Source: an uncultured Alphaproteobacteria bacterium (GTDB lineage: Bacteria; Pseudomonadota; Alphaproteobacteria; Rhizobiales; Hyphomicrobiaceae). From it: a stretch of 64,000 bases of DNA. The stretch is taken from contig CAVXAF010000002.1 in the NCBI GenBank assembly GCA_963759735.1, positions 58,255 through 122,254 on the forward strand, in the 5' to 3' direction. Below are positions 30,350 to 39,399 of this stretch, piece by piece (within the stretch, counting starts at the first letter, position 1; each line of letters starts with the position of its first letter). The notes below the pieces were generated by a model, which saw only the letters and a list, made by a program, of their open reading frames with translations, had not been told where the DNA came from and searched no databases. The position numbers were made by a program, and so were the translations under genes.

Positions 30350-31514
30350 TCAGTGACCTGACTTCGCCATCCGCTGACCAATGACGATCAGCCGAGCGGC
30401 GCGCTCGGCGGCATCCTGCAGATACTGGCGCGATTTCTTGATCGCCACATCGAGCGGCATCGCGTTGGGAGTGGCGGTCTCCAGCCCGTCGATGCCGTGG
30501 GCGAACACACCGCCGGCGTCATCGGCGAGGCCGCCGCCGATGGCGACGACCGGCACGCCGTGCTTGCGCGCCGCCATGGCGACGCCGGATGGGGTCTTGC
30601 CGAAGGCAGTCTGCGACGTCGACGCGCCCTTCGCCGGTGAAGGCCAGCGCGGCCCCCTGCATGTGGTCCTCAAGCCGCGTCGCGGCGACGACGAGTTCGA
30701 CGCCGCGCTTCAAGGTCGAGTTGGTGAAGGCCATGAGCCCGGCGCCGATGCCGCCGCCCGCACCCGCACCCGGCCGGTCAATGACGTCGGCGCCGATGCT
30801 GCGTTTGATGACATGGGCGAAGTGGGCGAGATTCTTGTCGAGCCGCTCGATCATCTCGGGCGTTGCGCCCTTCTGCGGGACCATAGACGCGCGAAGCGCC
30901 CTTCTCTCCGCACAGCGGATTGGTCACGTCGCAGGCGACGCTGATGTGGATGCCGGCGAGCCCGGGATTGACCGAGCGACATATCGACGGCCTGCACGTC
31001 GTCGAGATCGCCGCCGGAAATGAGGTCGCGGATCGGCGCGCCGCCGAAATTCAAGAAAGCGCACGCCGAGCGCCTGGGCGAGGCCGGCGCCCGCGTCGTT
31101 GGTCGCCGATCCGCCGATGCCGAGGATGATCTCCTTGACGCCGCGCTTGATGGCGTCGTCGATCAGCTCACCGGTTCCGTAGGTGGTGGCAACGAGCGGG
31201 TCGCGCTCCTCTTTGGGGACGAGCGGCAGGCCGGAAGCCTCGGCCATCTCGATCACCGCCGTCTTGCCGTCGCCGAGCAGCCCATAGGAGGCCAGGACGC
31301 GCTTGCCCATGGGGCCAGAGACTTCGACCTTGACGATCTGGCCGCCGGTGGCGTCGACGAGCGATTGCACCGTGCCCTCGCCGCCGTCGGCCATGGGCAC
31401 CTTGACGTAGGTCGCGTCCGGCCAGACCCGCTTGAGGCCCGTCTCGATCTCGCCCGCAACTTCCAGGGACGTCAGGTTCTCTTTGAAGGAATCAGGGGCG
31501 ATGACGATCTTCAT
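30350..31514 (-). CDS. Glycerate kinase (GlxK/GarK type), four +1 frameshifts
   Basis: [61 protein letters not shown] spread over several frames; either a pseudogene or an assembly error. Confidence 0.88.
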
Positions 31515-32545: not shown

Positions 32546-32785
32546 TTGAGTACCTTCACCGTCAAGCGCGGCCGGCGCTACCAAGCCAAGATCTCGCTCG
32601 GGCTGTTGGAGAGCCTGGCCGGCAACGATGTCATCGCCGGCCGGCTGCAGACGGCGGGATTTACCGATGTGTCCGTGAAGGGGTCCGGCAGCACCCGGTA
32701 CGCCGAAGGGATATGGCCGCGCGAGGATGCGAGCGCCGAGATGCCTGCTCAGGTAAGCGCTGTAACCGAAATTGAAGAAGCGTGA
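32546..32785 (+). CDS. Small hypothetical protein (79 aa)
   Basis: AGGAGG RBS directly upstream of a TTG start; coding-like composition. Confidence 0.7.
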   Translation: MSTFTVKRGRRYQAKISLGLLESLAGNDVIAGRLQTAGFTDVSVKGSGSTRYAEGIWPREDASAEMPAQVSAVTEIEEA

Positions 32786-33184
32786 GCGCGCAGCCGCAGC
32801 GGTCGCGAGGCGTTACAGCACGGGCCTGCGGCAACCAATGGCCGGGCCGGCGAGGGCCGATCTTCAAGGTCAGGATGCTTTGCTGTCCAAGAATTGGGCA
32901 TCGCCAAATGCTCCGGTGTTCATCCTAACGAAAGCACCATGACTGGCCGATTTTGTCCGCTCACTGACTTTCAACACACGTAGGACTTGTGTTGCTTACT
33001 CAAATTGGCAAAATGTGGAGTCTAGGGCCGAAGAATTGCGCAACCGGGACTATCGCTCGCGTTCGATCTTCAAGCCGCTCCGCGCAGCCCACGCACTGTC
33101 CGATCTCATCATCGGCTGTCGTCCGTGGAACAAGGTGCGCCTGAGTAGGCTCGGAAGCGTGAGGCGACTGTCGGCGGAGGGACG

Positions 33185-33637
33185 GTGGAGATGCAGTTGG
33201 ACGAGCACGGAGCCAGGATGATCCTGGATTCTTCGCACGCCGCCTGGAGCGGCGGTGACGTCGAAGGGGTGCTGAGTAACTACGTCGAGGATCTCGAGTA
33301 CTACTGCAACACCGGCGGTCCCGACGGAGGACCGCTGCGGGTGGTCGGAAAGGCGGCCCTGCGGGAGATGCTGCAGGCGATCGTCAAGGTCGCCGAGAGC
33401 GTCTCGGTGTCGGAATACTTCCGCTACAGCGACGGCGTCGGGCGCGCCAAGATCGAATGCTACATTCGTCACAAGACGACGAACCACACGATGGTGGGTT
33501 CCTATCGTCAGCTCATCACCTATCGCGGCGACAAGATCGCGCGCATGGAAGAATTCCATGATGCGGCGAAGATGATCGCCTTCTGGCAGATGATCTCCGG
33601 CGAGGACGCCATCGAGAAGGCGCTGCTGGCCGAGTAG
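33185..33637 (+). CDS. NTF2-like / SnoaL-like protein
   Basis: AAWSGGDVEGVL, VVGKAALREML, YRGDKIARMEEFHD. Confidence 0.8.
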   Translation: MEMQLDEHGARMILDSSHAAWSGGDVEGVLSNYVEDLEYYCNTGGPDGGPLRVVGKAALREMLQAIVKVAESVSVSEYFRYSDGVGRAKIECYIRHKTTNHTMVGSYRQLITYRGDKIARMEEFHDAAKMIAFWQMISGEDAIEKALLAE

Positions 33638-33770
33638 CCGAACGCCGGTACTCGCGCGCCAGCCGACGCTCTGGGCCATTCAGGCCGGCAAGGGAAGCGC
33701 GGCGGCACCGCTAGCCGGCCGCGCAACCATCGGCCTTCAGACCTTCAGGCCTCAATTCGCCAGGCCGTCA

Positions 33771-33977
33771 TCACCAGCGGCGCCAGCGCCACCACCAATT
33801 GCGATGACCACGCCAACGGCGCCATCCGGCTTGGTCGACGATTGAGGCCGCGTGGGCCGAGTTGCCCGGTACGGCGCTGAGGCCGGCTACCGGCGCCGCC
33901 AGGGCGGGGGTGCCGAACGCGACAGCGCCGAGCGCCAGCGCGCCCGCCATGGCGCTGATTGCGAGTTGACGATGCAT
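33771..33977 (-). CDS. Small secreted protein with Trp/Arg-rich C-terminus (68 aa)
   Basis: GGAGGA RBS, signal peptide ending ALA, C-terminus GWRRWRGHRNWWWRWRRW. Confidence 0.75.
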   Translation of the reverse strand: MHRQLAISAMAGALALGAVAFGTPALAAPVAGLSAVPGNSAHAASIVDQAGWRRWRGHRNWWWRWRRW

Positions 33978-34052
33978 GGTGTTCCTCCAGGACTTGCGTC
34001 CTGAAGGAGTAACCGCGAAGCGGCCAAGGCCGGCTTAGCCTGCACTATGCAA

Positions 34053-34069
34053 GTTGCGTCAAACGCAAC
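34053..34069. promoter_or_regulatory. Palindromic operator candidate overlapping a putative -35
   Basis: GTTGCGT-CAA-ACGCAAC; the minus strand reads TTGACG-N17-GCTAAG toward the 68-aa gene. Confidence 0.45.
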
Positions 34070-34135
34070 CGATCGCGAGGGCCACTTGCTGCTTGGCGGA
34101 GGGCGCGGGGCGCGGTTTACGGCGCTAAGCTTCCC

Positions 34136-35173
34136 CTACAGGGCGAACTGCAGCATGGCGCGGGTGCCGCGCTCGACTGGCTCGTAGGTGAGCTCGGCAC
34201 CGAGCCGCGTCGACATGCTGCGGATGACGCGCGTACCAAGGCCGGTGCCGACGGGCGCGGCGGGAGACAGCGACAGTCCGACGCCATCGTCCTCGACCGA
34301 CAGGTGCCCCTCATCGCCATGACGCATCATCTTGACGCGGATGTCGCCGCTCTGGTCGTCGACGTAGGCGTACTTATAGGCGTTGGTGACGAGCTCGGTG
34401 ACGATGATGCCGAGCGACACCGCCTTGTCAGTCGGTAGCCGGATCGGATCGGCGATAAGCGAGATATCGTGATCGGTGCCCCAGGCGAGCATAGAAGCGC
34501 GCAGCTCTTCGACGAGGCCGCCCAGGTAGGATTGGATGTCGACCGACTGCACGTCATCGGAGGTGTAGAGGCGGCGGTGAACGCCGGCGATGGCCAGAAT
34601 TCGCGCCTGCATTTCATCGAGTGCGCGCAACGCCGAGGCGTCGGTCACCGTCGAGCGCTGCATGTTGGTGAGCGCCGCCACGATGGCCAGCGAGTTGGAC
34701 ACGCGATGATTGACTTCGCGCAATAACAGCTCGGCGCGGTCGCGGGCAGCGATGACTTCGCGGTCGGCCGCTTCCTTGTCGCGCCGCAGGCGTTCCTTCT
34801 CCAGGGCCGTGACGATGGCCTCGGCGAGAAGGTCGCGGAAATGTCCCTGCACGTCCTTCCACACATAGTCGACGGCGCCGGCCTTGAGGGCGGCCACGGC
34901 GATGCGGCTGTCCTCCGACCCCGTCACGTAGATGATGGGCGGAGCGGCGGCCAAATCGCGCAGGCGCGGAAGAACCTCCAGGCCCGTCTGGCCCGGCATG
35001 TGGTGGTCGAGAGCGACGATATCGAACTGCTCGCCACCAAGCCGGACGAGCGCCGTTTCGCCGGATAGCTCCAGCACGACGTCGAACCCGCGCGACTCCA
35101 GGGTCTTTTGAACAAGCCGTCCAATCCCCGCGTCGTCGTCGATATAGAGCACTCTGGCCCTGCGGTCGGTCAC
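34136..35173 (-). CDS. Receiver-domain / HisKA_2 (HWE-like) histidine kinase hybrid
   Basis: N-terminal REC (IDDD, LDHHMP) plus EVNHRVSNSL, ELVTNAYKYA, VEDDGVG. Confidence 0.9.
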   Translation of the reverse strand: MTDRRARVLYIDDDAGIGRLVQKTLESRGFDVVLELSGETALVRLGGEQFDIVALDHHMPGQTGLEVLPRLRDLAAAPPIIYVTGSEDSRIAVAALKAGAVDYVWKDVQGHFRDLLAEAIVTALEKERLRRDKEAADREVIAARDRAELLLREVNHRVSNSLAIVAALTNMQRSTVTDASALRALDEMQARILAIAGVHRRLYTSDDVQSVDIQSYLGGLVEELRASMLAWGTDHDISLIADPIRLPTDKAVSLGIIVTELVTNAYKYAYVDDQSGDIRVKMMRHGDEGHLSVEDDGVGLSLSPAAPVGTGLGTRVIRSMSTRLGAELTYEPVERGTRAMLQFAL

Positions 35174-35616
35174 TGTGTCTCCGGAACCTGCATCACAGCG
35201 AAGAATAGACCGAGCTGACGGATGGCATTGGCGAAGTTGTCATAGTCGACGGGCTTGGTGATGTAGACGTTGGCGCCGAGATCGTAGCAGCGCTGAATTT
35301 CCCGCGCGTCGTCGGTCGTCGTCAACACGATGACCGGAGACCGCTTGGTATGCTGGTTGGCCTTGATTTTCTCAAGGATGGTAATGCCGGTCATGTCGGG
35401 GAGATTCAAGTCGAGCAACACCAGCAGCAGCTTCTTAGAGCTCACTTCGCCCGATTGATCGGGCCCAAGCAGGAATTCGAGGGCTTCCGTGCCGTTGGTG
35501 AAGGCGATCAGCTCGTTGTGTACGCCGGCGCGGCGGATGTTGCGCTCAATCAGTCGTGCGTGTCCCTCATCGTCCTCGATCATGACGATGGAGACTGGTC
35601 TACCCTCTAAGCTCAC
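35170..35616 (-). CDS. Single-domain response regulator (Rcp1-like)
   Basis: IEDDEGH, LLDLNLP, VIVLTTT, YDLGANVYITKP. Confidence 0.92.
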   Translation of the reverse strand: MSLEGRPVSIVMIEDDEGHARLIERNIRRAGVHNELIAFTNGTEALEFLLGPDQSGEVSSKKLLLVLLDLNLPDMTGITILEKIKANQHTKRSPVIVLTTTDDAREIQRCYDLGANVYITKPVDYDNFANAIRQLGLFFAVMQVPETQ

Positions 35617-37102
35617 CGAGATGCTCCGATTTTAGACGCAGGTTGCGGGGGAGTTTTACCTGAAAAGTGGTTCCTGATCCAACTTCGGAGGTCAGAGTGA
35701 TCTGACCTCCCAGGCGCCGGACAAGGGCCCTGACGTGGGCAAGGCCAATGCCTTCACCCGGCTGATCCTGGACGCCGGCGCGTCGGAACAGGTCGAAGAC
35801 GCGTTCGTGATCCTGCTCGCCGATGCCGCGACCATTATCCTCAATCTCTATCAAAATCGAGCCATCGCGTTGCGACCGGGCGCGCACCTGAATGAGCGGC
35901 GCCCTCCCTGGGGCACGATATTTCACAGCGTTGTCGACCAGGTTGCCGAACACCTGCTCCAATGCCAGGCGATCGCTGGTAATGACGGGAAGCGGTTTTT
36001 CGATAGCGAGCGAGCCGCCAGCTTCGGTGAGACGATGCTGGACGCTGTCGGAGATGCCCTCGAACAGGGTGACGAGGTTGACCGCTTCGGGATTGATGTT
36101 CCGCCGGCCTTCGCGCGACAGCTTGAGAATCGCGTTGATCAGCGAATCCATCTTCTTGGTCGAGCTCTGGATAAACGAGATGGCCTCGGGGATTTCCTCT
36201 TTCACCGCGGTCTTCGCAGCCGGGGCGGAGGCCAATGCATCGAGGCCCGGATCGTCGGTGAGGGTCTGCAACGCCTCAAGAGATGTTTTCAGCTCGGCCG
36301 TGAAGCCCATCACGTTGACCAGAGGCGCGCGCAGGTCGTGGCTGACGATGTAAGCGAAGCGCTGGATCTCATCGTTGGCGCGCTGCAGGTCGATCGTGCG
36401 CTCCTTGACGCGCAAATCGAGGCCGGCATTCAGCGCCTCGACCTCGGTCCGCGCGCGCACAATCTCGCGGGTGTAGTTGACCAGCGCCCAAGCGACGCCA
36501 CCGCCTGCAAGCAGCACCAGGACGCCGCCAACGATGGTCGACAGACGCAGATAGCCGGCGTTTTCGCGCTGCTCCTCAATGGCCAGGACAAGCCGCCTCT
36601 CGACGTCATTGCGCTCCGCAACGATACGGTCGCGCACACTGTCCATCAGCTCTTTGCCGCGGTCGGCAAGCACGATGGCCAATGCTTCCTGGTCCTTGCC
36701 GGCGCGCTTCAGCTCCACCGTTTGCCTAAGCTCATCGAGCTTGTCCTTGATGAGCGGACGGAGCCCGGTGACGAATTCCTGCGCCTCGCCGCGCGTCCCA
36801 ATGACCCGGGTCAACGTCTGCATGGCAGGCTCGATGTTTGACACGGCCTGTTGGTACGGCTGCAGGTACCGCTCCTCTCCCGTCAGGAGATAACCGCGCT
36901 GGCCGGTTTCGGCATCCTGCATAAGCGAGAGCAGATCGGCGAGCGCGCTGCGCATTTCGCGCGTCGCCAAGACCTCTTCGGTCGAGGCGTTGGTGCGCTG
37001 CATCGTCCACACCGACAACCCGACCATCACCAGCAGGGCGGCAAGCCCGATGGCGGTGAACAGCGCGGTGGCGCGCATCAGCGTATACTTGGATACCGGC
37101 AC
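35600..37102 (-). CDS. CHASE3-domain sensor histidine kinase
   Basis: DAETGQRGYLLTG (CHASE3), two TM segments, SHDLRAPL, NLVDNAVKY, EDNGRGI, GIGLA. Confidence 0.92.
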   Translation of the reverse strand: MPVSKYTLMRATALFTAIGLAALLVMVGLSVWTMQRTNASTEEVLATREMRSALADLLSLMQDAETGQRGYLLTGEERYLQPYQQAVSNIEPAMQTLTRVIGTRGEAQEFVTGLRPLIKDKLDELRQTVELKRAGKDQEALAIVLADRGKELMDSVRDRIVAERNDVERRLVLAIEEQRENAGYLRLSTIVGGVLVLLAGGGVAWALVNYTREIVRARTEVEALNAGLDLRVKERTIDLQRANDEIQRFAYIVSHDLRAPLVNVMGFTAELKTSLEALQTLTDDPGLDALASAPAAKTAVKEEIPEAISFIQSSTKKMDSLINAILKLSREGRRNINPEAVNLVTLFEGISDSVQHRLTEAGGSLAIEKPLPVITSDRLALEQVFGNLVDNAVKYRAPGRAPLIQVRARSQRDGSILIEIEDNGRGIGEQDHERVFDLFRRAGVQDQPGEGIGLAHVRALVRRLGGQITLTSEVGSGTTFQVKLPRNLRLKSEHLGELRG

Positions 37103-37187: not shown

Positions 37188-39399
37188 TTAGCTAGCCTCC
37201 CGACGCGGCGGCCGGCGATCTCGTCCGCCACCACCGCCCTCGCGGCGCGGGGGACGCGAAGCACTGAACTCCTGTTCCGGCTCCTCACCCTCGGCGCGCG
37301 GAATTTCCTGGCCGGTCGTCTGATCGATGATCTTCATCGACAGGCGTGTCTTGCCGCGCTCGTCGAAGCCCAGGAGCTTGACGTAGACCTCCTGGCCTTC
37401 CTTGACCACCTCGCCGACCGTCGCCGGACGCCCGGGTGCCAGCTGCGAGATGTGCACGAGGCCGTCCTTGGCGCCGAAGAAGTTCACGAAGGCGCCGAAG
37501 TCCATGATCTTGACGACCTTGCCCTTGTAGATCGTGCCGACCTCGGGCTCAGACGTGATCTCGCGAATGCGCCGCAGCGCCTCGTCGATCGACTCCCGCT
37601 TGGAAGCGGCAACCTTCACCGTGCCATCGTCGTCGATATCGATCTTGGCACCGGACTTAGCGACGATCTCGCGGATTACCGAGCCGCCCGAGCCGATCAC
37701 TTCACGAATCTTGTCGGTCGGGATCTTGATGGTCTCGATGCGCGGAGCGTGCTCGCCAAGCTCAGTGCGGGCGGTGCCCAGAGCCTTCGACATCTCCCCG
37801 AGGATGTGCAAGCGGCCATCGCGAGCCTGATCAAGCGCGATGCGCATGATCTCTTCGGTGATGCCCGTGATCTTGATGTCCATCTGCAGCGAGGTGACGC
37901 CGTTCTCGGTGCCGGCCACCTTGAAGTCCATGTCGCCGAGATGGTCCTCATCGCCAAGGATGTCGGAGAGGACTGCGAAGTCCTCGCCTTCCTTGATGAG
38001 GCCCATGGCAATACCTGCCACCGGAGCCTTCAAAGGCACGCCGGCGTCCATCAGTGCGAGCGAGGTGCCGCACACCGTCGCCATCGACGAAGAGCCGTTC
38101 GACTCGGTGATCTCCGAGACGATGCGGATGGTGTAGGGAAACTCCTCGTGCGAGGGCATCACCGGATGCACGGCGCGCCAAGCGAGCTTGCCGTGACCGA
38201 TCTCGCGACGCCCGGGCGAGCCCATGCGGCCCGTCTCACCGACCGAGTAGGGCGGGAAGTTGTAGTGCAGCATGAAGCGCTCTTTGCGAGTGCCTTCGAG
38301 CGCGTCGATGAACTGCTCGTCCTCACCGGTGCCGAGCGTGGCGACGACGATCGCCTGCGTCTCTCCGCGAGTGAACAGCGCCGAGCCGTGGGTGCGCGGC
38401 AGCACGTGCACTTCCGATACGATGGGGCGCACGGTCTTCAGGTCGCGTCCGTCGATACGACGGCCGGTCTTGACCACGTCGCCGCGCACGATCTCGCTCT
38501 TGAGAGCCTTGATGGTGTCGGAGAGCAGCACCTTCTCGGTCGCATCATCAGGGATCGTGATGCCTGCCTTGACCTTGCCCTCGGCAGCCTTGACGAGGTC
38601 GTAGCGCTTGGCCTTTTCCTTGGTGGAGAAAGCGGCGCGCAGATCGGCTTCGGCGATTTCCTTGACCTGGGCGGTGTACTTGCCGGTGTCGGGAAGCTTG
38701 ATGTCCCACGGCTCCTTGGCAGCCTTCTCGGCGAGCTTGATGATCGCCTGGATGACCGGCTGGAAGTGCTCGATGGCCGAACATCACGCCTTCGAGCATC
38801 TGCTTCTCGGACAGCTCCTTGGCCTCCGATTCCACCATCATCACGGCATCGGTCGTGCCGGCGATGACGAGGTCGAGATCACTGTTGGCCATCTCATCGA
38901 GCAGCGGGTTGAGCACGTACTCGCCACCGATAAGACCAACGCGGGCAGCCCCGATCGGTCCCAGGAACGGCACGCCCGACAGCGTCAGGGCGGCGGACGA
39001 GGCAACGAGGGCGAGGATGTCGGGGTCGTTCTCCATGTCGTGCGACAGCACGGTGATGACGACCTGGGTCTCGTTCTTGAAGCCCTCAACGAACAGCGGA
39101 CGGATCGGCCGGTCGATGAGGCGTGAGGTGAGCGTCTCCTTCTCGGAGGGACGGCCTTCGCGCTTGAAGAAGCCGCCGGGGATCTTGCCGGCCGCGAAGG
39201 TCTTTTCCTGGTAGTTCACGGTGAGGGGGAAGAAGTCGACGCCAGGCTTCGGGCTCTTGGCGGCGACGACGGTGGCGAGGACACTGGTCTCGCCGTACGA
39301 GGCGTAGACGGCGGCGTCGGCCTGGCGCGCCATGCGTCCAGTCTCGAGCGTCAGCTTGCGTCCACCCCAGTCAATTTCCACTCTATGGATGTCGAACAT
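37188..39399 (-). CDS. pnp: Polyribonucleotide nucleotidyltransferase, frameshift at ~38772
   Basis: [46 protein letters not shown]; KH and S1 domains. Confidence 0.96.

What the first reader, a model, noticed from the sequence alone, without database searches (positions are those of the whole stretch)
33771..34069. Secreted prepro-peptide ending in an 18-mer with 7 Trp and 7 Arg
Seen: GGAGGA RBS, a putative promoter overlapped by a perfect palindrome (34053-34069), a signal peptide ending ALA, an Ala/Ser-rich spacer ending IVDQA, then GWRRWRGHRNWWWRWRRW and a stop. Known: short Trp/Arg-rich peptides (indolicidin and tritrpticin class) are membrane-active, and Rhizobiales encode many small secreted proteins with aromatic/basic tails of unknown role. 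Inference: a signal-pro-mature layout for a cationic antimicrobial or envelope-modulating peptide. No modifying enzyme, dedicated exporter or obvious immunity gene is adjacent; the convergent SnoaL-like protein is only a speculative partner.
Basis: partly seen in the sequence, partly recalled or inferred. Interest (0 to 1): 0.62.

Follow-up and report, generated by a model that had tools for sequence, protein, structure and literature searches.

The report
Exported tryptophan/arginine-tailed small protein, Hyphomicrobium
This is a real, strongly conserved gene of some Hyphomicrobium species for a tiny exported protein whose last 18 residues are almost only tryptophan and arginine; it belongs to a large, uncatalogued family of small exported proteins with very basic, aromatic tails in Rhizobiales, and its role (probably sticking to negatively charged cell-envelope surfaces) is untested.

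Summary
The ORF is real: window 33771-33977 (-), 68 aa, SD GGAGGA, signal peptide ending ALA, neutral spacer, then GWRRWRGHRNWWWRWRRW and a double stop. Orthologues sit at the same chromosomal site in 16 of 39 species of the genus. The tail is nearly invariant despite synonymous codon changes (dN/dS 0.065, against 0.20 for the spacer and 0.29 for the signal peptide), so it is translated and selected as protein.

It is one branch of an uncatalogued multigene family, with no Pfam or NCBIfam model. The shared layout is signal peptide, a roughly 20-residue uncharged spacer, a V-(D/E)-(K/Q)-(A/V)-G junction, and a polycationic aromatic tail (Trp/Arg, His-rich or Cys-containing). The window's genome has six copies. 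A broad profile hits 52 of 129 genera of the order. Tails with Cys always carry an even number (14 of 14), which fits export to an oxidising compartment.

There is no exporter, immunity gene or maturase nearby, and no plasmid or phage copies. Distant relatives have unrelated neighbours, and the SnoaL neighbour reflects synteny only. The "perfect palindrome" is a chance-level 7+3+7 inverted repeat that is not conserved, but a promoter-like TTGA-N20-CTAAG-N6-TTGGC motif is.

Best reading: a Sec-exported envelope- or polyanion-binding peptide acting in the producer's own envelope. An antimicrobial role is possible but unsupported.

The parts
33771..33977 (-). Whole coding sequence of the 68-aa precursor, including the TGA stop at 33773-33771. 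A second in-frame TGA follows at 33770-33768.
   Evidence: Orthologues. Coding-frame selection.
33897..33977 (-). Signal peptide, residues 1-27 (MHR / hydrophobic core / A25-L26-A27). Predicted signal peptidase I cut is between A27 and A28.
   Evidence: Read from the sequence. A27 and P29 are invariant and the -3/-1 positions are A/V-x-A in all 28 sequences. Predicted as a helix, residues 3-25. No SignalP tool was available; the cut site follows the -3/-1 rule.
33828..33896 (-). Uncharged Ala/Ser/Gly/Pro spacer, residues 28-50 (APVAGLSAVPGNSAHAASIVDQA). It holds the family motifs AP(V)xGL and (I/V)V(D/E)(K/Q)A.
   Evidence: Net charge is about 0 across 60 family members. dN/dS 0.20.
33774..33827 (-). 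Trp/Arg tail, residues 51-68 (GWRRWRGHRNWWWRWRRW), net charge +7. Only position 57 varies among orthologues.
   Evidence: dN/dS 0.065, or 0.03 without position 57. Not more amphipathic than shuffled versions.
33983..33988 (-). Shine-Dalgarno sequence GGAGGA, 5 nt upstream of the ATG.
   Evidence: A purine-rich block sits at the same place in the orthologues.
34023..34062 (-). Conserved promoter-like block: TTGACG (34062-34057), GCTAAG (34039-34034), TTGGC (34027-34023).
   Evidence: Conserved in the alignment of 14 loci. Spacing from TTGA to CTAAG is a fixed 24 nt in 12 of 14. The motif occurs only once in the window's genome. It is not a canonical sigma-70 match and carries no EcfG motif.
34053..34069 (.). 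7+3+7 inverted repeat GTTGCGT-TTG-ACGCAAC overlapping the -35-like TTGACG. Judged to be a chance feature.
   Evidence: 81 comparable repeats in the window. Not conserved in orthologous loci.

Best explanation
The gene encodes a small protein that Sec exports to the periplasm. Signal peptidase I is predicted to cut after A27, leaving a 41-residue product.

The product has two parts. The first is an uncharged spacer of about 23 residues. The second is an 18-residue polycationic, Trp-rich tail.

The spacer's likely job is to keep positive charges away from the signal peptide so that translocation can start. The tail is the working part. Arg and Trp side chains make it bind anionic surfaces: the interfacial region of phospholipid or LPS leaflets, or another envelope polyanion.

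It acts in or on the producer's own envelope, as the Trp/Arg branch of a multigene Rhizobiales family of exported 'basic-aromatic tail' proteins. It is not a dedicated, exported bacteriocin.

Shown: the gene is real, it is under protein-level selection that is strongest on the tail, its family membership and architecture are as described, it is a stand-alone gene, and it is chromosomally inherited.

Inferred: export, the cut site, binding to anionic envelope components, and action on the producer's own envelope.
For: Gene and selection:
- Reality of the ORF and protein-level selection concentrated on the tail.

Export:
- The signal peptide has an invariant A-x-A|A-P cut site.
- Cys-bearing tails in the family always carry 2 or 4 Cys (14 even, 0 odd). 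This is expected for peptides oxidised outside the cytoplasm.

Family:
- The same layout (signal peptide, neutral spacer, junction, tail of +5 to +18) appears in all relatives found among 1.84 billion representatives.
- The window's genome has 6 copies.
- 37 of 39 species of the genus have at least one copy, and up to 7.
- A broad profile hits 111 of 301 genomes and 52 of 129 genera of the order.

Arguments for own-envelope use rather than a weapon:
- The gene is single, with its own promoter-like motif, and several orthologues have a hairpin plus T-run just after the stop.
- It lies in a syntenic chromosomal position between housekeeping genes.
- It has no plasmid or phage copies.
- No exporter, immunity gene or maturase is nearby.
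- One paralogue type carries a canonical EcfG general-stress promoter, GGAAC-N16-CGTT, 26-30 nt upstream of the ATG in 5 species including this genome. This links the family to stress physiology.

The affinity of Arg/Trp-rich sequences for anionic membrane interfaces is established knowledge from the indolicidin, tritrpticin, lactoferricin and puroindoline literature.
Against: - There are no expression, localisation or binding data.
- The exact residue order of the tail is conserved, not just its composition. The order is not explained by helical or strand amphipathicity: 14-52% of shuffles score as high at the helical and flat-strand angles tested. This hints at a specific partner rather than generic membrane binding.
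- A peptide at +7 free in the periplasm could be toxic to its producer.
- The WR68 promoter has no EcfG motif, so the stress link applies to a paralogue only.
- The gene was lost or decayed in at least one related species, so it is dispensable.
- AlphaFold2 confidence is only moderate (mean pLDDT 67).
Confidence: 0.45

Rival explanations
1. One reading: a prepro-antimicrobial peptide. After Sec export, a second protease cuts at DQA|G and frees the 18-mer, which leaves the cell and permeabilises competitors' membranes.
For: - The tail composition (7 W, 7 R, +7) closely mimics Trp/Arg antimicrobial peptides; this is established knowledge.
- Paralogues look like other host-defence peptide types: His-rich histatin-like tails, and C-x8-C loops such as CWWRHGRRHC.
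- The junction motif V(D/E)(K/Q)(A/V)G is conserved across the family and could be a processing site.
Against: - There is no route across the outer membrane, no immunity gene and no dedicated exporter within the surveyed neighbourhood.
- Inheritance is vertical and syntenic, with no plasmid or phage copies.
- The tail is frozen rather than diversifying.
- AlphaFold2 predicts a continuous helix across the proposed cut.
- The spacer is not acidic, so it would not mask the tail as typical AMP pro-pieces do.
Confidence: 0.2
2. A specific periplasmic ligand. The invariant tail binds one defined partner, for example the periplasmic domain of a sensor, a PDZ protease recognising the C-terminal Trp, or a transporter. 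It would act as a small regulatory or adaptor peptide.
For: - Residue order is conserved at 17 of 18 positions over dS of about 0.6.
- Amphipathicity is no better than in shuffled sequences.
- Single copy per genome at a fixed locus.
Against: - No gene co-varies with it except the SnoaL-like neighbour, which has no signal-peptide evidence and also exists without it.
- Paralogue tails differ wildly in length and sequence, which fits composition-driven function better.
- The adjacent two-component genes are present in only 5 of 13 related loci.
Confidence: 0.15
3. A cis-acting regulatory ORF. The Trp/Arg stretch would stall ribosomes, either as a secretion-monitoring arrest peptide or as a Trp-supply sensor. 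This would control transcription running into the convergent SnoaL-like gene.
For: - The layout of an N-terminal signal peptide plus an invariant C-terminal motif ending at the stop codon superficially resembles SecM, VemP and TnaC-type peptides (own knowledge).
- There are seven UGG codons in 18.
Against: - No gene lies downstream on the same strand; the next gene is convergent.
- Several orthologues have a terminator-like hairpin plus T-run directly after the stop.
- Paralogues and distant relatives with different tails sit in unrelated contexts.
- No Rfam element was found.
- The even number of Cys in relatives points to a function for the mature exported peptide.
Confidence: 0.05
4. A spurious ORF in GC-rich DNA, with no protein product.
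For: The genome is 65% G+C and full of long accidental ORFs. No family model matches.
Against: - 27 homologues of the same length exist.
- Substitutions show third-codon-position wobble in this frame, with dN/dS of 0.03-0.29.
- The SD sequence and a promoter-like motif are conserved.
Confidence: 0.02

Closest known systems
Trp/Arg-rich cationic antimicrobial peptides: indolicidin, tritrpticin, lactoferricin core RRWQWR, the puroindoline-a Trp-rich domain, and synthetic (RW)n peptides
   Same: A short stretch dominated by Trp and Arg with a high net positive charge. It is made as the C-terminal end of a precursor that begins with a signal peptide. The expected physical behaviour is binding to anionic membrane interfaces.
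   Different: - Those peptides are eukaryotic (or synthetic) and unrelated in sequence and precursor type; no Pfam hit was found.
- Their release by processing and their activity are demonstrated; here neither is.
- This is a Gram-negative bacterial gene whose product would first land in the producer's own periplasm.
Sec-dependent unmodified (class II) bacteriocins of Gram-positive bacteria, e.g. enterocin P
   Same: A ribosomal, apparently unmodified small cationic peptide with an ordinary Sec signal peptide instead of a double-glycine leader.
   Different: - No adjacent immunity gene.
- A Gram-negative producer with an outer membrane to cross.
- A core chromosomal, syntenic gene rather than a strain-variable or plasmid gene.
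- No sequence similarity.
Asr, the acid-shock periplasmic repetitive basic protein of Enterobacteria (NCBIfam NF033636)
   Same: A small Sec-exported, low-complexity, strongly basic periplasmic protein. It serves as a precedent for basic disordered proteins that act in the producer's own envelope under stress. One paralogue type here has a general-stress (EcfG) promoter.
   Different: - No homology: the only trace is E = 0.48 over the signal peptide of one distant relative.
- Asr is Lys/His/Ala/Gln-rich without Trp.
- Regulation of WR68 is unknown.
The unnamed paralogues in the same genus: His-rich type (…VEKAGYRHHRRWHHRKWWKKRYYKRHHH…), four-Cys type (…VDKVGWRRCARWNYICRDRWGWGWRYRRCMRNHGC) and the …RRPGFG(I/V)YLGF type
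   Same: True homologues. They share the signal peptide, the AP(V/A)SG start, a neutral spacer of about 20 residues, the V(D/E)(K/Q)(A/V)(G/H)(W/Y)R junction and a basic-aromatic tail.
   Different: - Tail sequence, length (17-111 residues) and chemistry differ.
- WR68 is the only branch with an almost pure Trp/Arg tail and no Cys.
- All are annotated 'hypothetical protein' or not annotated at all.

Membership tests
Trp/Arg-rich cationic antimicrobial peptides (indolicidin / tritrpticin class) | Short peptide segment dominated by Trp and Arg with a net positive charge | tested here: met
   18-mer with 7 W, 7 R and net charge +7.
Trp/Arg-rich cationic antimicrobial peptides (indolicidin / tritrpticin class) | Homology to the known precursors (cathelicidin or other AMP precursor domains) | tested here: not met
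   No Pfam or NCBIfam hit. No PDB sequence relative.
Trp/Arg-rich cationic antimicrobial peptides (indolicidin / tritrpticin class) | Proteolytic release of the short active peptide, and membrane-permeabilising or antimicrobial activity | not testable with these tools
   Needs peptidomics and MIC or leakage assays.
Sec-dependent class II bacteriocins | N-terminal Sec signal peptide on a small unmodified peptide | tested here: met
   n/h/c regions with an A-x-A cut site conserved in 28 sequences. This is a rule-based call, not SignalP.
Sec-dependent class II bacteriocins | Cognate immunity gene next to the structural gene | tested here: not met
   The neighbours are a SnoaL-like protein, an HWE/HisKA_2 kinase set (in 5 of 13 relatives), PNPase and an NAD-epimerase-like protein. 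Distant relatives have unrelated neighbours.
Sec-dependent class II bacteriocins | Patchy, strain-variable or mobile distribution | tested here: not met
   Same syntenic chromosomal site in 16 species. No plasmid or phage hits.
Secretion-monitoring ribosome arrest peptides (SecM, VemP, MifM, ApdP) | ORF lies upstream of, and in the same operon as, a gene for a protein-export component | tested here: not met
   The downstream gene is convergent (SnoaL-like), and several orthologues have a terminator-like hairpin after the stop.
Secretion-monitoring ribosome arrest peptides (SecM, VemP, MifM, ApdP) | Translation arrest at the conserved C-terminal motif | not testable with these tools
   Needs toeprinting or Ribo-seq.
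Trp-codon leader peptides (trpL-type attenuators) | Short leader ORF directly upstream of Trp biosynthesis genes, with alternative terminator and antiterminator hairpins | tested here: not met
   No trp genes downstream, the ORF carries a signal peptide, and Rfam finds nothing.
RiPP precursors with Trp-containing cores (darobactin / triceptide type) | Adjacent radical-SAM or other maturase, and a leader without a Sec signal | tested here: not met
   No maturase among the neighbours surveyed, about 29.3-39.4 kb. The N-terminus is a classical signal peptide.
Asr acid-shock basic periplasmic protein (NF033636) | Match to the NCBIfam model above its cut-off | tested here: not met
   No hit for WR68. 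E = 0.48 and 11 bits, against a cut-off of 50, for one distant relative.
Unnamed Rhizobiales 'signal peptide, neutral spacer, basic-aromatic tail' small-protein family (defined here) | Signal peptide with an AQA|AP-type cut, an uncharged spacer of about 20 residues, a V(D/E)(K/Q)(A/V)(G/H)(W/Y)R junction and a tail of net charge +5 or more. Significant profile similarity is also required. | tested here: met
   Profile search E-values of 1e-4 to 1e-30, alignment A2 and charge statistics.

The most novel reading that the evidence does not exclude
Hyphomicrobium and other Rhizobiales may carry an unrecognised, gene-encoded arsenal of unmodified, Sec-exported peptides that resemble animal and plant host-defence peptides. 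These come in three flavours that arose from one ancestral scaffold: Trp/Arg type (this gene), histatin-like His-rich type, and disulfide-stapled C-x8-C hairpin type. They would be genuinely membrane-active, either as a new class of Gram-negative antimicrobial peptides or as endogenous modulators of outer-membrane and LPS charge and permeability.
Probability: 0.2. Interest if true: 0.75.

Novelty: new variant of a known kind. Interest (0 to 1): 0.5.

Why it matters
If the tail is membrane-active, this would be a natural bacterial counterpart of the Trp/Arg peptides that are otherwise known from animals, from plants and from peptide design. Its sequence has been fixed by strong purifying selection, which provides a ready-made, evolution-tested 18-mer.

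More broadly, the family it belongs to is present in dozens of Rhizobiales genera, often in several copies per genome, yet it has no Pfam or NCBIfam model and no known function. At least one branch appears to be wired to the alphaproteobacterial general stress response.

Defining what these exported polycationic tails do would fill a visible gap in envelope biology of a major soil, water and plant-associated order. The candidate roles are envelope stabilisation, polyanion or metal binding, and competition.

Tried and rejected
- Pfam and NCBIfam scans of WR68, three paralogue types and ten distant relatives found no family.
- A PDB sequence search gave only noise: ribosomal protein L2 at E of about 0.6.
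- Rfam on 33000-34500 found nothing relevant.
- The sigma-70 promoter and intrinsic terminator scan of 33400-34300 found nothing. The RNA fold of the 3' region in the window is not significant (z = -1.15), although several orthologues show a hairpin plus T-run.
- The amphipathic helix or hairpin idea for the tail was rejected: the hydrophobic moment is not above shuffled sequences.
- A shared regulon through the upstream motif was rejected: the motif is unique in the genome.
- The EcfG motif upstream of WR68 is absent in all 14 loci.
- The two-component cluster (34136-37102) as a partner was rejected: it is present in only 5 of 13 related loci.
- SnoaL as a partner is not supported beyond synteny.
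- Short metagenome contigs carrying P0007 and P0012 were examined as possible transcripts and were uninformative.
- Literature searches for a described family or for Hyphomicrobium Trp-rich peptides found nothing relevant.
- The earlier-findings index had no look-alike by sequence, only unrelated Trp/Arg-rich exported proteins from other phyla.
- Fold search was not run, because a model consisting of two helices at pLDDT 67 would give meaningless matches.

Full report
**1. Observation**

- The ORF exists exactly as described. It occupies window 33977->33771 on the minus strand and encodes 68 aa: MHRQLAISAMAGALALGAVAFGTPALAAPVAGLSAVPGNSAHAASIVDQAGWRRWRGHRNWWWRWRRW. Two TGA codons follow it.
- GGAGGA (33988-33983) lies 5 nt before the ATG.
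- The tail holds 7 Trp and 7 Arg in 18 residues.
- The window is 65% G+C and contains many accidental ORFs, so conservation is the critical test.

**2. It is a real, translated gene**

- A search of 5.8 billion proteins found 27 homologues of 54-82 aa, all unnamed.
- In the alignment the tail AGWRRWRxHRNWWWRWRR(W) is nearly invariant, while the signal peptide and spacer vary.
- Thirteen genomic loci were retrieved, all from Hyphomicrobium or unnamed alphaproteobacterial MAGs.
- The tail amino acids are fixed while the codons wobble: Arg uses CGC, CGT, CGG and AGA; His uses CAT and CAC; Asn uses AAT and AAC; Gly uses GGA, GGC and GGT.
- Nei-Gojobori estimates over 14 orthologues:

| Segment | dN/dS |
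|---|---|
| Signal peptide | 0.29 |
| Spacer | 0.20 |
| Tail | 0.065 |
| Tail without position 57 | 0.03 |

- dS across these segments is 0.6-1.2.
- Selection therefore acts on the protein, and most strongly on the tail.

**3. Signals around it**

- The '17-nt perfect palindrome' is a 7-bp inverted repeat with a 3-nt loop. The window contains 81 comparable repeats, and the orthologous loci lack this one. It is best regarded as chance.
- The consensus scan finds no sigma-70 promoter.
- The 14-locus alignment nevertheless shows a conserved block, TTGA(a/c)GCAA...GCTAAG-N6-TTGGC, about 60-85 nt upstream of the ATG. The TTGA-to-CTAAG distance is a fixed 24 nt in 12 of 14 loci.
- This motif occurs only once in the window's genome. 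It is not the EcfG general-stress motif.
- The -35 part resembles the alphaproteobacterial housekeeping TTGAC (own knowledge). The -10 part is atypical, so the sigma factor is unknown.
- Several orthologues have a GC hairpin plus T-run right after the stop. In the window itself the 3' fold is not significant.
- The gene thus looks monocistronic.

**4. Context**

- All 13 loci keep the convergent SnoaL-like gene (33185-33637). They also keep a conserved 79-aa ORF, an NAD-epimerase-like gene, glycerate kinase and PNPase, so the whole region is syntenic.
- The HWE/HisKA_2 two-component cluster directly upstream (34136-37102) is present in only 5 of 13 loci.
- In the genus, 16 of 39 species have a true orthologue, and all 16 have the SnoaL neighbour.
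- Three further species keep SnoaL without the peptide. One of them retains a decayed relic of the tail-coding DNA.
- More distant relatives (P0029, P0031) lie next to SspB or a DEAD-box helicase.
- No homologue occurs on plasmids or phages.
- There is therefore no conserved partner, exporter, immunity gene or maturase.

**5. A wider family**

- A profile search over 1.84 billion representative proteins returned only 28 hits.
- Apart from two long repetitive proteins (P0034, P0035; low-complexity matches to the spacer) and three truncated or frameshifted copies (P0026, P0028, P0030), the hits are small proteins with the same plan:
  - a signal peptide ending in an AQA|AP-type cut;
  - an uncharged spacer of about 20 residues;
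  - a junction V-(D/E)-(K/Q)-(A/V)-(G/H)-(W/Y)-R;
  - a tail rich in Arg, His, Trp and Tyr, sometimes with Cys or Gly.
- Within the genus several types coexist:
  - the Trp/Arg type (this gene);
  - a His-rich type (VEKAGYRHHRRWHHRKWWKKRYYKRHHH…);
  - a four-Cys type (VDKVGWRRCARWNYICRDRWGWGWRYRRCMRNHGC);
  - C-x8-C types (…HHCWWRHGRRHCRRGW);
  - a type ending …RRPGFG(I/V)YLGF.
- The window's genome has six members.
- 37 of 39 species of the genus have at least one member.
- A broad profile hits 111 of 301 genomes and 52 of 129 genera of the order. This profile is low-complexity, so the figure is indicative only.
- Across 60 members the spacer is about neutral (-2 to +2) and the tail carries +5 to +18.
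- Where tails contain Cys, the number is always even: 14 even, 0 odd, about 11 of them independent. This fits disulfide formation after export.

**6. Structure**

- AlphaFold2 on the orthologue alignment gives mean pLDDT 67. It predicts a signal-peptide helix (residues 3-25) and a second helix (residues 40-67, pLDDT about 80) that runs through the proposed DQA|G cut.
- The tail is not more amphipathic than shuffled versions, either as helix or as strand.
- The strict conservation of residue order therefore remains unexplained.

**7. Interpretation**

Shown:
- a genuine gene;
- selection focused on the tail;
- the family architecture;
- stand-alone, chromosomal, vertical inheritance.

Inferred:
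- Sec export with cleavage after A27, giving a 41-mer;
- the neutral spacer serves to keep positive charge away from the signal peptide, a known requirement for Sec export in Gram-negative bacteria (own knowledge);
- the tail binds anionic envelope surfaces;
- the protein acts on the producer's own envelope.

One paralogue type carries a textbook EcfG promoter, GGAAC-N16-CGTT, 26-30 nt upstream of its ATG in five species including this genome. About 0.0015 such matches are expected per upstream region by chance. This ties the family, though not this member, to stress physiology.

I put 0.45 on this reading. The rivals are the following:

| Reading | Confidence |
|---|---|
| Prepro-antimicrobial peptide | 0.20 |
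| Specific periplasmic ligand | 0.15 |
| cis-regulatory stalling ORF | 0.05 |
| Spurious ORF | 0.02 |

**8. Comparison with known systems**

- In composition the tail is closest to Trp/Arg antimicrobial peptides. In export mode it resembles Sec-dependent class II bacteriocins. In physiology it may parallel the basic periplasmic protein Asr.
- It fails the membership tests that could be run for all three. It shows no homology, has no immunity gene and has no mobile distribution.
- It is not an arrest peptide, a trp leader or a RiPP precursor by context.
- It is best filed as a member of a new, unnamed family. That makes it a new bacterial variant of the known kind 'gene-encoded cationic aromatic peptides'.

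**9. Limits**

- No signal-peptide predictor was available; the cleavage site follows the -3/-1 rule.
- The genus-level sample is shallow.
- The assembly around the gene shows probable indel errors, although this ORF is intact and matches its orthologues.

Noticed in passing
G000 contig C12:215112-215360 (+), locus L049; related loci L051, L053, L063, L066: A paralogue of the family (MKNKLTLAVV…RRPGFGVYLGF) has a canonical alphaproteobacterial general-stress (EcfG) promoter, GGAAC-N16-CGTT, 26-30 nt upstream of its ATG. This holds in 5 species including this genome. The other 11 or so orthologues lack a strict match.
   Followed up: partly
G000 contig C11:21479-21655 (+), locus L003: The His-rich paralogue of this genome reads MT*FLPLAAV…, with TGA at codon 3 where relatives have Arg or Gln (MTRFLPL / MTQFLPL). 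It is either a pseudogene or a base error.
   Followed up: partly
window 37188-39399 (-): Polynucleotide phosphorylase (pnp) is split into two ORFs, 38548-39399 and 37188-38531. Relatives align across the break in a different frame, so this is a frameshift or assembly indel. Some related MAG loci show similar breaks.
   Followed up: partly
window 30381-31514 (-): The glycerate kinase ORF 30924-31514 covers only Pfam positions 1-154 of 372. The rest appears to lie in other frames downstream, another probable indel.
   Followed up: no
window 34136-37102 (-): A three-gene signalling cluster consists of a 500-aa histidine kinase, a CheY-like single-domain receiver and a receiver-HisKA_2/HWE kinase hybrid. 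The hybrid's best NCBIfam hit is PhyK, below the cut-off. The cluster is present at this site in only 5 of 13 related loci, so it is an insertion or deletion polymorphism.
   Followed up: partly
window 32546-32785 (+): A 79-aa ORF (MSTFTVKRGRRYQAKISLGLLESLAGNDVIAGRLQTAGFTD…) is conserved at 65-78% identity in all 13 related loci. It has no Pfam or NCBIfam match.
   Followed up: no
locus L079 (G012:C31) positions about 1174-1203: A species that keeps the SnoaL-like gene but lacks the peptide gene retains a short relic of the tail-coding DNA: TGGCGCGGCTGGCGGACTCATCGCAGTTG, reading …WRGWRTHRS… and then a stop. This indicates gene decay in that lineage.
   Followed up: partly
proteins P0028 and P0030 (metagenome homologues): Two database homologues have normal N-terminal halves, but their tails are replaced by unrelated sequence (…AGWRRCGACIAIGGGAGVVGDGQ). 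This is what a frameshift within the TGG/CGC-rich tail DNA would give, so it is probably a sequencing error or a pseudogene.
   Followed up: no
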